Source: Eledone cirrhosa (taxonomy: Eukaryota). From it: a stretch of DNA of 64,000 nt. The translations under genes and the position numbers were made by a program. Below are positions 15,001 to 21,000 of this stretch, one piece after another; the stretch's first letter is position 1; the number at the start of each line of letters is the position of its first letter. Location of the stretch: contig OZ024750.1 of NCBI GenBank assembly GCA_964016885.1, positions 12,896,001 through 12,960,000 on the forward strand. The letters run 5' to 3'. The notes under the pieces are model-generated. The model was not told where the DNA came from. It saw only the letters and a program-made list of their open reading frames with translations, and searched no databases.

Positions 15001-18000
15001 CATCAGAGGAAATTTCTTTTGTTTCTAAAATATATCCAGTTATTGGGGAACTGCCGACATTATCAGGGCTTTCCCACTGGAAGGTCGCGTTATCCCTAGA
15101 GATATTTGAGATCCTCAAGGGTCCTCGAGGTCGTGTTGGATAATCTGTAGGAATAATTATTGAATAAATGTATTAGTGGGATTTATATTATACACAAATC
15201 AAAATAGTTGCTGATTGTTTAAAAAATAATTATAGATATAAATATTAATGTTACAATATATTACATATCACAAAATATGATAAAATTAAAGCCAAAATAT
15301 ATTATATAAAGCAGAAACAAGTATATTGTGAATTTGATTATAAAAGCAAATATACAGTGAGAAGAAATTATATAAGATAACATTTGTTTTCTATAATGAT
15401 TACTTTAAAGTTATATTTTAATTGATTCTGTAGAAATATATATTTATATATATATAGTTTGTTGTGTGGAAAAATGTGACTATATCAAAATATATATTAC
15501 ATAAAATTTAGTAATATATTTTTGATAGATTTCTGCATTTGTTTGGTAATATATATATACTCCCTATATATATATGTGTATATATATATATATATATATA
15601 TATATATATATATCCTAAACAATTTAAAAAATCTATTTAAAATGTACTATTTAATTTTATGTAATTACTATATCTTATTTTTCCACAAAAAAGGGAAATA
15701 AATATTTTAGGATATTTGATTTGACCAACTTAATTTCTATTATTTATATTTATACAAATTGATAGAAAATTAAATAATCATAAAATGTTGAGAAGGAAAT
15801 TATTAAATTCCATGCTTTTGTTTTTCTATTAAAATTGTTGAACTCTTTGAAAATGTTTTTTAAAACTAAGAATATGAACAAATTTATATAAAATATCAGA
15901 TAAATTTGTTCATAAAATACCTTTACAGGTCAATCAGTTATACACTATATATTGAATTAAGTTTGTTATTCATTGTGGTTTAAACTAAAGACTTAATACA
16001 GAATATGTAACAAAGAATAATTTAATTCTTTTTGATATTAGAAATTATTAGAAATTATTTTATATATTTTTAGTTTTGTAGAAAAGAATTTATAAAATTT
16101 GATTTTTTTTTTATATTAAAATTTTTAGATTTCCTTAATAAATATCTAGAAAAGAATTTATAAAATTTGATCTTTTTTTTATTTAATATTAGGAAATTTT
16201 AGATTTGTTTAATAAATATGTTTATAAATTTTTTATTTTATTTTTAAGGATATCAGAGAAAAATCTTATCAGAATTTTTAATAATTTATTTATGGATTTA
16301 TATTACGCTTATTAATAGTCTTTCAAAGAATTGTTCTTGAATAGTTAGGGATTAATTGAAGGGTTCTTCTTTGAAATAGGTGTAGATCTTATTATAAAAA
16401 AAATAAAAAAAGGAAAAAAAAAGGAAAGACAAATCAATCCACAGCACTCTCATATCACACCAATATGTAATAATTATCAAAACATTATCCAATCTGAGAG
16501 GTAAATTTGTTAAAGAAAGTTCATATTTAAATTAGGCACTAAACTACCTATAACTAATTAAATATTAAGAAAGTAGGTGAAAATATTTTCAAAATCCTAT
16601 CGGAATATTTTTTACTAGTAAAATATATTCACATAAAAAGTATATAAAATCCGAACATAATTATCATACAGAATTTAACTTAATTTCTTAGACTTATATG
16701 GGCTTTCAACTAGTTTTTTATGTTGTTTATAGACTCTAGATATATCATTGTTTTTAAAACAAATGTTTCTAAATTGGTAAACAAATACAACATTTCATCA
16801 TCATCATCATCATTTAACATCTATCTTCCACGCTAGCATGGGTGAGACTTTGTTTTAATAAAATAGGGGCAACAAAAATAATTTATTTATTGTCTAAATT
16901 GAAATTAATAAAGTCATTACAACAGCTGTATAACTGGTTTGATTCAAAGTTCTCAATCAACCATCAAAGTTTAATTCAAACTAATACTGAAACTAAAACT
17001 TAATATAAATAAGAAATGAAGTATTTCTTACTATTTTTCTTACAAGATTTTATGCAAAGTACCAATATAATCCTCTATATAGAAGGACAGAAATAACATT
17101 ACATTTTTTTTAATTTTCATTCTTGTAATGTACTAAATAATGGTAGAGTAAATGATAAAATATATTTGTATAAATACTAAAAATATATTCCCAAATACTA
17201 GAAGATTCTTAGCAAATTATCTCTTAGATTGGATACTTTTTGAGAATAATACAAGAAAGGTAACACACAAGAAAGGATAATTGGATAATAAAGAAAAATA
17301 TTCAAGGTAGAATATGATAGCTATAGAGATTCATGCATCTGAAAAGAAAGAGATGAGAAGGAAAAAGTCAGAGAAATATATTTTCACATCATGCAGACAT
17401 AATCTGCAATATTTTCAATCACATTTTGATGCTTTTAAAGATGAATATTTATGTGCTACAGGAATTGTGTACCATTCGTGGGATTCTCATGCAAAAGGTA
17501 TCAACACCAGTGAGGTCACACTCATAGGGATCATTGATAATTATGGAATGGATTCAGAAAGGTTTCAACCCGGACCAGTTTGCAAGCAACTGTGAGATTA
17601 ATGTTACCTGCTTTGGTGGCCCTGACGTTGTTGGGTAAACTGACTAGAAGCATTTAGTTGATATTGCCTCTGTTGCACATTGTGCATTTCATAGTTGCGT
17701 GATACTTGGTGACTTCGAGACTCTTGGTGATCAATATCTGACAAAAGGGAGTTATGGTATGCTGCCGATGAATCAGTAGAATACCGTACTAGGTATATAT
17801 ACTGTATTGGCACTGATCCATACACAGAACTCGTATTTGTCAAGTGATGGTAATTTCGAATTTGTGTTACTGGATAAGTATTTTCATAATATGGCTGACG
17901 ACTGAGACGAAGAGAGGTCTCATAGTCAGCTAGATATGATGCCTCATAATCAGAACGAGTTGTAGAATAATCATAATGACGTAGATTATGTACATGATGC

Positions 18001-21000
18001 CGACTTTCATCAAGCCCATGATGGTGTGTTGTTTCATAATCATGACCATAACGATGGCTATCATGATATTGGTTTGACTGTTCTTCAGTTGATTGGTAGG
18101 TGAATGGTAATGTATGTCTATGTGTTTGTTGTTCTGATCTTTCATATGTATAATCTTGAGAAACTGATAACATTTGGTGACCTCGGAACAATTGTAAAGC
18201 CGTCTGGCTCTCTGAAGAATAAGAATAGTCAAAAATGGTGTGAGATTTTTAAGGCTCACGGATATTTGTCTATGAATTGCCGTAGTGAGTAATCTATATA
18301 TAAATTGATTCTTGTAAAACATTTAAAATCTAATATGGAATGTAGAAAAAATTCTAAACATTAAAATATTATATATATATTCAGTAATTAGTAACATAAA
18401 TTATATGTATGACAATATTTCAAATAACATATGTGTATATATATATATATATATATATATATATATATATATATATATATATACATACATATATTATATA
18501 TAAATATATATATATATATATATATATATATTATATATATATATATGTATGCATATATATATATAATATATATATATATACACATCCATCAAATCACTGT
18601 ATATTTTTCAACAAGTTTCTAATTATTGCTTCGTAACCATTACACCAAAGTAAGGTTGACCACCTTCCTATCATTTTCAAGCCTTATCTGTCAACAAGAG
18701 GATGTAAACAATTAACTATATTTTTACAGAGCGTTGAGAAAATAATTTTAAAAGTATTTTTGCTTAAAGGTTGTTTTTTACTATGAAAAATATTAAATGT
18801 GTGTGTGTGTGTGTGTGTGTGTGTGTGTGTGTGTGTGTGTGTGTGTGTGTGTGTGTGTGTGTGTGTGTGTGTGTGTGTGCATATGTGCATGTGCATATGT
18901 GCAAGCATGTGTATTGGGGGAAAGCGTGAGAGTGAAATGCTGCCTAGGTAATTTTACTATAACAAAGAACGCATTGTTCCAAACAAGTTTAAGATATTGA
19001 GTTTATTCCTAACAACTTGGCCAGATGTTTGAATTCTTCTTTCTAAAGAGGAGACTCTTGTAGAAATAAGAATTAAAATATCTTGCCAAGTAGCAAAGAA
19101 CATAATTATAATATTTATATATATATATATATATATATATATACAATACATATATATATGTATGTATAATACATATATATATGTATGTATAATACATATA
19201 TATATATTATATATATATATGTATAATATATATATATATATATATATATTTATAATATGTATATATATATATGTATAATATATATATATATATATGTATA
19301 ATATATATGTATGTATAATATATATATATATATATATATGTATAATATATATATATATATATATATATGTATGTATAATATATATATATATATATATGTA
19401 TGTATAATATATATATATATATATATATATGTATGATATATATATATGTATAATATATATCTATATATATGTATAATATATATATAAATGTACAATATAT
19501 ATATATATATATATGTATAATATATATATTTAATATATATATAATATATATATTATATATATATATATATATATATATATATATATGTATATATATATAT
19601 ATATATATGTATATATATATATATATATATATGTATATATATATATGTATATATATATATATATACAATACATATATATATGTATGTATATATATATATA
19701 TATGTTTATATATGTATATGTGTGTATAAACATGTTTTGATATGTATATATTTATGTATAACATTTATTTGCTTTTCTCGTAAAGACTGCCACAATACCA
19801 TAAAATAGTGAAATACTTCCAATAAATAACTCTTGAAGATAGAAGAATCAGAGAGTGGTCCCAAGAGGAATCAAACTACACATATACCATATGTCAAATA
19901 ACTGTAATAACCTTTATACTATCAGCAAATGTATGATTTGATCCTTGTCATCATCTCTCTTAACCAGTTTCTATCTTAAACTTATTTGACTATTTTTTGT
20001 AGTTTATACTACGAATTGTGACAACTTTCACAACAAAACCAAATAAATTATCAGACTCGCCAATTTTTCTTCATAAACACACATACACGTATATATATAT
20101 ATATATATATATATATATATATACACGAATGTATATGTGAATGTATTTATGCATGTGTGTGTGTATACACATGCATAAATATATGTATATATATGTATAT
20201 ATATGTATATATATATATATATATACATATATTTATGCATGTGTATACACACACGCATGCATAAATATATTCACACACACACACATGTATTTATATACAC
20301 ACACACACATATACATTTGTATATGCATACATATGATCATCATAACCATCATTTAATGTTCATTCTCTGTGCAAGCAAGGGTTGGAGTGGCCATTGTTAC
20401 TGACCTTTCAGATGGGCTGGGGGCTATCTCATTTGGATATGTCTTTGCACTTGTCAGTGTGGACCAAGCGCATTTTATCAAGACACCGGCACTTATGTGG
20501 CAGTTAGGCCTTTGACACAGGGAGTGTAAGAATGTATGTAAAAGAGATGTAGGTCCCTAGTTCATTTGAAAGGTCAATAGCTCTCTTTAAAATTTGATAG
20601 TCTATGAGAAGCCATCCAACCCTTGCTAGCAGAGAAAATCAATATTAAATGATGATGATGATAATAATAATAATAATATATATATATACATATATATATA
20701 TAGTATCATGATAAAAAAAAATGTAACAAATATCTTAAATAAATCAATTGATAAAAATATATTAATAATTCATTTGTATTTACAAATCAATATTTTAATC
20801 AATATGGATAAATGTGTAGTAAAATGTAAATAATGATCCTGAAATGTAAATATATGTTTACATATCAACTGCCTCCATTAATTCAAGAAAGTTAACTATA
20901 AATATTTAACTCAGATAAGACTTTTAACTCTCAAAACTAGGTATCAATCAGGTGAAAACATACCACCTATTACTGTGACCCCTTAAAAAATGTTTGATCT

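What the first reader, a model, noticed from the sequence alone, without database searches (positions are those of the whole stretch)
17604..18211. Hidden alternative last exon encoding a ~202-aa His/Tyr/Ser/Gln-rich low-complexity tail
Seen: inside the 7.7-kb intron (15145-22850) a pyrimidine-rich acceptor (ttcttattcttcag) opens, in the phase 1 used by every FN3 exon, a ~600-nt stop-free frame in very AT-rich DNA. It reads ..[65 protein letters not shown]. About 2.4 kb of nearly TE-free sequence follows, with AATAAA at 16882-16891 on the minus strand. Inference: an isoform ending after exon 22851 with a disordered His/Tyr-rich tail that could self-associate, bind metal or anchor the protein. 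Caveat: AG|gtaaca at 17608/17607 could be a phase-2 donor, which would not fit the downstream FN3 exon.
Basis: partly seen in the sequence, partly recalled or inferred. Interest (0 to 1): 0.8.

Follow-up and report, generated by a model that had tools for sequence, protein, structure and literature searches.

The report
Frameshift exon cuts off titin's kinase
In a giant titin-like gene of a mollusc (likely an octopus), a conserved 604-base exon is spliced in near the end and shifts the reading frame, so the protein would end in a predicted disordered Tyr/Gln/Ser/His tail and likely lack the kinase encoded further down.

Summary
The exon is real, but it is mainly not a last exon. In one public run (X2), contigs join 22851|18211 and 17608|15144 exactly at the splice sites. 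The 604-nt exon enters in phase 1 and leaves in phase 2, so the next FN3 exon is read shifted and stops after 15 residues. Read-through past the donor exists at low depth and stops at once, giving almost the same tail. Orthologues at 68% and 38% identity keep both exon ends; Tyr, Gln and Ser are conserved, His is not (2 of 20). The tail is predicted disordered with one conserved helix. The host is a titin-like giant (Ig, long E/V/T/K exons, 138 tandem FN3). An FN3-FN3-Ig-Ig-FN3-kinase module follows 15 kb downstream in compatible phase, so inclusion likely makes a kinase-less titin, as obscurin-A does beside obscurin-B. That the kinase is on the same transcript is inferred, not shown. New variant of a known kind.

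The parts
17608..18211 (-). 604-nt coding cassette exon ('HY exon'), phase 1 in, phase 2 out; encodes the Ser/Gln/Tyr/His-rich tail
   Evidence: Both ends defined by contig loose ends in run X2; frame open only at this offset; orthologues P0001 and P0002-P0004
18212..18236 (-). Splice acceptor (pyrimidine tract, AG at 18213-18212)
   Evidence: Contig 13 leaves the window sequence here and continues with the end of exon 22851
17604..17609 (-). Dual-use AG|GTAA: phase-2 splice donor (GT 17607-17606) overlapping the read-through stop TAA (17606-17604)
   Evidence: Sequence; contig 14 spliced here, contig 12 unspliced; called orthologous proteins also end Ser-Arg here
17901..17948 (-). Best-conserved block of the tail (residues 88-103), predicted helix, candidate binding motif
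   Evidence: 8 of 13 columns 88-100 invariant in three species against 55 of 184 overall; only part of the model with pLDDT of 50 or more
22851..23156 (-). Penultimate FN3 exon of the array; phase-1 donor to the HY exon or (skip) to 15144
   Evidence: Pfam fn3 E 6e-13; junction to 18211; skip inferred from where contig 14 ends
14839..15144 (-). Last FN3 exon of the array, read in two frames: FN3 when HY is skipped; 15 shifted residues (15143-15099) and TAG (15098-15096) when HY is included
   Evidence: Pfam fn3 E 3e-10; junction 17608|15144; translation
16202..17607 (-). Low-depth unspliced continuation past the donor: minor 3' UTR of a last-exon form, or pre-mRNA
   Evidence: Contigs 12 (16837-17637, depth 29.5) and 11 (16202-16785, depth 22.4) in X2; AATAAA at 16242 and 16237
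11478..11635 (-). Separate short terminal exon ('T'), phase 1, 52 residues then stop, also Ser/Thr/Tyr-rich
   Evidence: In frame after 14839; a relative's protein P0006 holds the last FN3 joined to this tail, 44 of 51 residues identical
1..94 (-). Start of the next FN3 exon (phase-1 acceptor at 95/94, 294 nt, runs out of the window): first exon of the FN3-FN3-Ig-Ig-FN3-kinase module
   Evidence: Ig, FN3 and Pkinase exons in L051; kinase closest to MYLK4/DAPK/twitchin/titin
23485..63513 (-). Tandem FN3 exon array of the host gene (continues upstream of the window)
   Evidence: 52 array FN3 frames in the window and 86 more at window coordinates 64001-129000; Ig and giant E/V/T/K-rich exons further up

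Best explanation
This is a conserved, protein-coding, frame-shifting cassette exon near the 3' end of a giant titin-like gene: it is spliced between the last two FN3 exons of the array, would end the protein in a predicted disordered 217-residue tail, and so likely makes a form without the downstream kinase. Shown (one run, plus sequence): junctions 22851|18211 and 17608|15144; 604 nt with exit phase 2; the next FN3 exon then reads 15 shifted residues and stops at 15098-15096; unspliced read-through stops at the donor itself and gives the same tail minus those 15 residues; relatives keep the frame and both ends. Inferred: skipping (22851|15144) keeps the FN3 frame and leads either to the short T exon (seen in a relative) or to the phase-1 FN3 exon at 94 and the Ig-Ig-FN3-kinase module; so the gene has at least three C-termini, one with kinase and two without. 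Most likely function (inferred, about 0.4 on its own): the tail is a non-modular docking region whose conserved Tyr-rich helix (residues 88-103) binds a thick-filament or M-line/dense-body partner, setting where the end of the molecule is anchored in muscles that use the kinase-less form, as the obscurin-A tail does.
For: Loose ends of X2 contigs 13 and 14 match once each in the window, at 22858-22878 and 15119-15144, the exact neighbouring exon ends. No second copy of the exon in the assembly, so no retrocopy explains the joins (1 match). No phase-1 donor-like site inside the exon (0 of 5 listed). Contig 14 stops 26 nt into the last FN3 exon, the value expected if the skip path 22851|15144 merges there (27 for an unspliced intron). 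P0001 68% identical over 99% of the tail; P0002 38%, E 8.6e-7, 0 of 1000 shuffles reach either score; both stop at the same Ser-Arg, and P0002 runs in from an intron-like start at the same acceptor. Low hydropathy and charge on the disordered side in all three; mean pLDDT 38.5. Kinase module on the same strand, its first exon has a phase-1 acceptor, and no FN3 frame lies between 14838 and 200. Kinase closest to MYLK4, DAPK, twitchin and titin. Precedent: obscurin-A non-modular tail against obscurin-B kinases (PMC3916441, passages).
Against: All junction data come from 1 of 4 runs, one sample, not on record as RNA, as contigs; each junction rests on one contig with 28 and 26-30 letters on the short side, under the tool's 31-letter rule for bridging. 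No junction 14839|94 was seen, so the kinase may belong to another gene. The skip form is inferred from a contig end only, and contig 13 starts with 28 nt of exon 22851, not the 29 that the skip branch alone predicts. The shifted stop lies about 257 nt before the next donor, which by the mammalian rule (recalled) would trigger nonsense-mediated decay. No peptide evidence; no full-length protein with this tail was found (0 of 160 candidates of 353-2000 aa; longer proteins are not searched). The structure model rests on 5 sequences from 3 lineages. No partner is identified.
Confidence: 0.62

Rival explanations
1. Same exon and same frameshift, but the kinase module is a separate MYLK-type gene with its own first exon; the giant gene never has a kinase, and HY and T are just two alternative ends (sallimus/I-connectin-like).
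For: No 14839|94 junction seen; 14.7 kb between them, filled with repeats; the only downstream join seen for the last FN3 exon is to T, in a relative (P0006); the kinase piece scores best with MYLK4; arthropods and nematodes split connectin into two genes (PMC12198301, section 18).
Against: The module opens with a phase-1 FN3 exon that needs a phase-1 donor, and 14839 is the nearest FN3 donor; Ig-Ig-FN3-kinase-Ig is the layout of the titin/twitchin end (recalled); I saw no separate first coding exon among the frames listed, though a short one would be missed.
Confidence: 0.22
2. True alternative last exon: the exon runs into its own 3' UTR and is polyadenylated in the intron; this is the main form in some tissues.
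For: Unspliced contigs cover 17607 to 16202 at depth 22-30, with no X2 cover in the intron just upstream of the exon (18264-18420), and end about 30 nt after AATAAA at 16237; P0001 and P0002 were called from unspliced sequence.
Against: At the same branch the spliced contig has depth 2096 against 29.5 (crude); the end at 16202 lies next to an A-rich run and contigs cannot show RNA ends; genomic DNA would give the same P0001/P0002 calls.
Confidence: 0.08
3. Poison cassette: inclusion serves to destroy the mRNA by nonsense-mediated decay and so dose the full-length protein; the tail does not accumulate.
For: Premature stop about 257 nt upstream of the 14839 donor; frameshifting phase kept in relatives.
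Against: 201 open codons kept at 68% and 38% identity with residue-sized gaps and selective retention of Tyr, Gln and Ser; the included form assembles at depth about 1700-2100; a poison exon would not need an open frame.
Confidence: 0.05
4. The tail works mainly as a His-based metal-binding or pH-driven self-assembling segment, like squid beak histidine-rich proteins.
For: His 10.0% here, 6.1% and 8.4% in relatives; Tyr 8-12%; near-zero net charge; predicted disorder.
Against: Only 2 of 20 His columns invariant; Gly 1.5-2.5%, unlike Gly/His-rich beak proteins (recalled); no Pfam or Atlas hit. Tyr-driven self-association is not excluded.
Confidence: 0.08

Closest known systems
Obscurin-A versus obscurin-B (OBSCN; PMC3916441, passages read)
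   Same: One giant Ig/FN3 gene gives a form ending in a long non-modular tail and a form ending in MLCK-type kinase domains.
   Different: Here the tail exon is internal and acts by frameshift, with the stop in the next FN3 exon read in a second frame; no sequence likeness found; ankyrin binding untested; host is FN3-rich and titin-like, and I did not look for obscurin's RhoGEF/SH3 domains.
Titin/connectin novex-3 (PMC11178842, passages read)
   Same: A unique exon gives an alternative termination signal and a shorter titin.
   Different: Novex-3 is a large terminating exon that keeps only the N-terminal part (650 kDa); this exon lies after the whole 138-FN3 array and is spliced at both ends.
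Titin/connectin family, including twitchin/projectin and I-connectin/sallimus (PMC12198301, abstract, sections 12, 14, 18, supplement 1 legends)
   Same: Ig clusters, very long unique exons, FN3 repeats, and a kinase of the MYLK/DAPK/twitchin/titin group at the locus.
   Different: The long array is FN3 only, not Ig plus FN3 as in the titin A-band. The paper uses an octopus sequence in its trees, but the text I read says nothing on its exons or C-terminal forms; I could not tell whether it is this gene.
Poison (NMD-coupled) cassette exons (recalled)
   Same: Inclusion shifts the frame and puts a stop well before a downstream junction.
   Different: The exon itself is an open 201-codon frame conserved as protein, and the included form is not scarce in the one run seen.

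Membership tests
Alternative last exon | Acceptor used from the upstream exon | tested here: met
   22851|18211 in contig 13
Alternative last exon | No downstream splice donor used | tested here: not met
   17608|15144 in contig 14; only a low-depth unspliced branch
Alternative last exon | Cleavage and polyadenylation in the following intron | not testable with these tools
   Contigs cannot show RNA ends; AATAAA sites exist
Frame-shifting coding cassette exon | Spliced at both ends, length not a multiple of three | tested here: met
   604 nt, both junctions in X2; one run, short sides under 31 letters
Frame-shifting coding cassette exon | A skip form exists | tested here: inconclusive
   Contig 14 ends where the skip path would merge (26 nt predicted and seen); start of contig 13 is off by one; last FN3 frame conserved at 88-91% in relatives
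Frame-shifting coding cassette exon | Frame conserved as protein | tested here: met
   68% and 38% identical orthologues, same ends; dN/dS not possible, no DNA of relatives
Poison (NMD) exon | Premature stop more than 50-55 nt before a downstream junction | tested here: inconclusive
   About 257 nt before donor 14839; what follows 14839 on the included mRNA was not seen
Poison (NMD) exon | Included form unstable, no conserved protein product | tested here: not met
   Conserved open frame; high contig depth (crude); UPF1 dependence not testable
Titin/connectin family (host gene) | Tandem Ig and FN3 domains | tested here: met
   Pfam fn3 and I-set; 147 FN3-like frames by own profile; upstream Ig exons by motif pattern only
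Titin/connectin family (host gene) | Long elastic unique (PEVK-like) sequence | tested here: inconclusive
   Frames of 1118-4726 codons rich in E/V/T/K/P by eye; composition and splicing not measured
Titin/connectin family (host gene) | C-terminal MYLK/DAPK-group kinase on the same transcript | tested here: inconclusive
   Kinase at the locus, same strand, compatible phase at the module's first exon; linkage by RNA not seen
Titin/connectin family (host gene) | A-band super-repeats of Ig plus FN3 | tested here: not met
   138 FN3 frames in a row; the motif scan showed no Ig exon between window coordinates 14839 and 128896
Titin/connectin family (host gene) | Orthology to connectin, twitchin or MYLK by kinase tree | not tested
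   Only an 81-residue piece was searched against solved structures
Obscurin-A-type non-modular tail | Ankyrin-binding motifs | not tested
   No Pfam, sequence or Atlas match for the tail; binding not assayed
Squid beak His-rich proteins / suckerins (features recalled) | Gly-rich His/Tyr repeat modules | tested here: not met
   Gly 1.5-2.5%, His positions not conserved

The most novel reading that the evidence does not exclude
Cephalopods have a single giant titin with a 138-domain FN3-only thick-filament region and choose its end by a fail-safe frameshift switch: a conserved coding exon whose donor doubles as a stop codon, so that spliced or not it replaces the kinase/M-band module with a disordered anchor carrying a new Tyr-rich binding helix; the last FN3 exon is dual-coding, the mRNA escapes nonsense-mediated decay, and the choice differs between obliquely striated and cross-striated fibres, giving a titin-based answer to how cephalopod muscle types are tuned.
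Probability: 0.2. Interest if true: 0.75.

Novelty: new variant of a known kind. Interest (0 to 1): 0.5.

Why it matters
It defines an unannotated-looking, conserved C-terminal switch in a molluscan titin-like giant: kinase module, short tail or long disordered tail. Gene models that assume in-frame exons would drop this exon or mark the transcript as decay-bound, yet it assembles at high depth in the one run seen. It gives three junctions (17608|15144, 22851|15144, 14839|94 or 11635) that can be counted directly in existing cephalopod RNA-seq to ask whether muscle types differ in having a titin kinase, and a natural test of whether cephalopod nonsense-mediated decay follows the exon-junction rule. 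The principle (kinase or non-modular tail) is known from obscurin, so this is a new route to a known outcome, not a new kind of system.

Tried and rejected
The look-up of sequencing runs: no RNA holder listed; 4 runs, one study, kind not on record; this blank is no evidence either way. Runs X1, X3, X4 laid no contig over 16869-18263, so whether the joined forms stand in DNA runs could not be checked there. I laid only 15660-18420 to stay clear of the long TA repeats, so the neighbouring exons were not in the reference, the joints table is empty, and the 22851|15144, 14839|11635 and 14839|94 junctions were not testable; table 7 showed 23 of 42 loose ends and table 8 30 of 145 pieces. Longer-protein search: 0 of 160 candidates, limited to 353-2000 aa. 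Pfam: no family for the tail or for the T frame. ESM Atlas: no usable hit, recognition 753. Earlier findings: nothing in 3 look-ups. Bacterial promoter/terminator scan is irrelevant to a eukaryote and was ignored. The strong acceptor-like site at 17339/17338 was considered as partner of the 17607 donor and rejected for X2: contig 12 runs through it unspliced. Pfam scan of L051:9796-9996 (C-terminal 67 residues of the FN3 at 94) gave no hit; the whole frame matches my own FN3 profile. Literature: no paper held all of fibronectin type III/giant/cephalopod/titin or titin/cephalopod/kinase domain/exon; listings showed no title on this exon (listings only); subscription journals are mostly not searched. 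Complex prediction not used: no candidate partner.
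Full report
Observation. The minus strand holds a 214-codon stop-free frame at 18248-17604 inside the 7706-nt gap between the last two FN3 exons of a long array (23156-22851 and 15144-14839). The acceptor is at 18212/18211 and the phase-1 donor of 22851 puts the frame in register. It is not chance: 0 of 5000 base shuffles stay open, GC is 0.39 against 0.22-0.23 in the flanks, and the other two frames have 5 and 21 stops. 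The genome holds one copy (1 match among 16 candidates).

Splicing. Four runs hold the stretch, none on record as RNA. I laid them on 15660-18420. Only X2 covers the exon. Contig 13 (632 nt, depth 1689) lies on 17608-18218 and its 21 loose letters match once in the window, at 22858-22878; the seven letters between are the end of exon 22851 aligned with one difference on the acceptor. So the join is 22851|18211. Contig 14 (56 nt, depth 2096) holds 30 letters of the exon's end and 26 loose letters that match once, at 15119-15144: the join is 17608|15144. A run whose contigs skip 4.6-kb and 2.5-kb introns at GT-AG ends and are far deeper on the exon than on the intron behaves as RNA; this is my inference. 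Limits: one sample, one contig per junction, short sides of 28 and 26-30 letters, under the tool's 31-letter bridging rule, and the tool warns that contig depth cannot rank parts of a gene. A second branch continues unspliced from 17607: contigs 12 (16837-17637, depth 29.5) and 11 (16202-16785, depth 22.4). It may be a minor last-exon form or pre-mRNA.

Consequence. The exon is 604 nt, enters in phase 1 and leaves in phase 2. None of 5 donor-like sites inside it gives phase 1. After it the last FN3 exon is read shifted: a junction Arg, 15 residues, then TAG at 15098-15096. The tail after the penultimate FN3 is 217 residues; unspliced, the donor's own GTAA supplies TAA and the tail is 202. Both routes therefore end the protein with nearly the same tail. 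A skip form is inferred: with Logan's 31-letter words (recalled), contig 14 should end 26 nt into the FN3 exon if 22851|15144 merges there and 27 if the unspliced intron does; 26 is seen. Against a tidy picture, contig 13 starts with 28 nt of exon 22851 where the skip branch alone predicts 29; a third path or an error tip would explain it, and it stays unexplained.

Conservation. Among 1.84 billion representatives, 2 proteins match at E up to 0.001: P0001 (68-69% identical, also 1 of 20 candidates) and P0002 (38%, E 8.6e-7; 3 members). Neither score is reached by 1000 shuffles. All are unnamed Logan proteins. Both end Ser-Arg at the same place, which fits a kept AG|GTAA, and P0002 begins with an intron-like run just before the same exon start. 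Of 184 ungapped columns 55 are invariant: Gln 11 of 20, Tyr 10 of 19, Ser 10 of 24, His 2 of 20. The densest block is residues 88-100 (8 of 13). All three tails fall on the disordered side of the charge-hydropathy line, while an FN3 control falls on the ordered side. AlphaFold2 on 5 sequences gives mean pLDDT 38.5, with only 7 residues at 50 or more, inside a helix at 88-103; the alignment is shallow, so this is weak. No Pfam family or Atlas hit.

Host gene. The organism is a mollusc (39 haemocyanin beta-sandwich matches, 0 of 14 control genomes); seven units per gene suggest an octopod (recalled). Upstream on the same strand lie Ig-motif exons, frames of 1118-4726 codons rich in E/V/T/K, an Ig/FN3 zone, then 138 FN3 frames in a row (52 in the window, 86 above). 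After the last FN3 exon come a short terminal exon T (11635-11478), which a relative's protein shows joined to that FN3 (P0006; 44 of 51 residues identical), and then, from window position 94 downward, FN3, FN3, Ig, Ig, FN3 and a protein kinase, followed by Ig-motif exons. An 81-residue kinase piece scores best with MYLK4, DAPKs, twitchin and titin. The exon at 94 has a phase-1 acceptor, and no FN3 frame lies between it and 14839. P0006 was called from a start ten codons into the last FN3 exon on a 14,785-nt contig; that fits an mRNA whose FN3 frame is closed upstream by the HY exon, but also a contig that begins there, so it is only a hint.

Mechanism. Best reading (0.62): a three-way choice of C-terminus. 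Skip HY and splice to 94: full titin-like protein with kinase (inferred). Skip HY and splice to T: short tail (join seen in a relative). Include HY: frameshift, long disordered tail, no last FN3, no kinase (junctions seen). The tail most likely serves as a docking region through its conserved Tyr-rich helix (inferred, no partner known). Rivals: the kinase is a separate gene (0.22); mainly a last exon (0.08); His-based metal binding or self-assembly as main role (0.08); poison exon (0.05). The shifted stop lies about 257 nt before the 14839 donor, so by the mammalian junction rule (recalled) the mRNA should decay; its high contig depth and conserved frame argue that it does not, but this is untested.

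Comparison. It works like obscurin-A against obscurin-B, a non-modular tail in place of MLCK-type kinases (PMC3916441, passages), and recalls titin novex-3 (PMC11178842, passages). It is a member of neither: no sequence likeness, and the exon is internal and acts by frameshift. It fails the test for a plain alternative last exon (donor used) and for a typical poison exon (open, conserved frame). The host fits the titin/connectin family in parts but has an FN3-only array; orthology was not tested. PMC12198301 (abstract, passages, sections 12, 14, 18, supplement 1 legends, term search of 5 supplements) includes an octopus sequence in its trees but the text read has nothing on its exons; figures are not held, and the supplement store did not answer, so files held only there may bear on this. 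Searches found 0 papers; listings showed no title on this exon. Public gene annotations of cephalopods could not be checked, so the exon may already be in a predicted model.

Verdict. Observation confirmed; interpretation partly supported. New variant of a known kind; interest 0.5.

Noticed in passing
window 14839-63513 and G000:C10 up to about 13,025,000: 138 FN3 exons in a row with no Ig between them; by eye a three-type pattern grouped into a nine-domain super-repeat, with near-identical recent duplications at window coordinates about 64,000-88,000.
   Followed up: partly
G000:C10:12674113-12674319 (L055) and window coordinates -114254 to -120103: A second MYLK-type kinase about 210 kb beyond the first, same strand, preceded by scattered Ig exons and a 1950-codon Ser/Arg/Tyr-rich frame; one two-kinase gene or a tandem neighbour.
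   Followed up: no
window 11478-11635 (-): Short terminal exon T with a Tyr run, conserved and spliced to the last FN3 exon in a relative (P0006).
   Followed up: yes
window 17656-17651 (-): TAA followed at once by ATG in the FN3 frame of the included mRNA, 15 codons before the last FN3 exon; could allow a downstream FN3-kinase product by re-initiation, but the place is deleted in P0002 and is probably chance.
   Followed up: partly
window 17339-17375 (-): Textbook acceptor (ctgac branch-like motif, long pyrimidine tract, AG) 268 nt after the 17607 donor; unspliced in contig 12 of X2.
   Followed up: partly
window 18209-18211 and 17074 (-): Contig 13 begins one letter later than the skip branch predicts; a third path starting AG plus C, G or T would fit (acceptor 18209 or 17074, or an error tip).
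   Followed up: partly
window 13290-13900: Tandem array of a 33-36-nt unit at the end of a LINE-like fragment, giving long open frames on both strands.
   Followed up: no
window 3500-5900 (-): Decayed non-LTR retrotransposon (endonuclease and reverse-transcriptase-like pieces, by eye) in the intron between T and the exon at 94.
   Followed up: no
window coordinates 194,000-288,000 (L015-L024): Giant exons of 1118-4726 codons, several of them near-copies of each other, rich in E/V/T/K/I/P: candidate elastic region.
   Followed up: no
G000:C1:173.74-173.91 Mb and C26:21.93-22.02 Mb: Haemocyanin genes in tandem on C1 (runs of seven units) and an inverted near-identical pair on C26.
   Followed up: no
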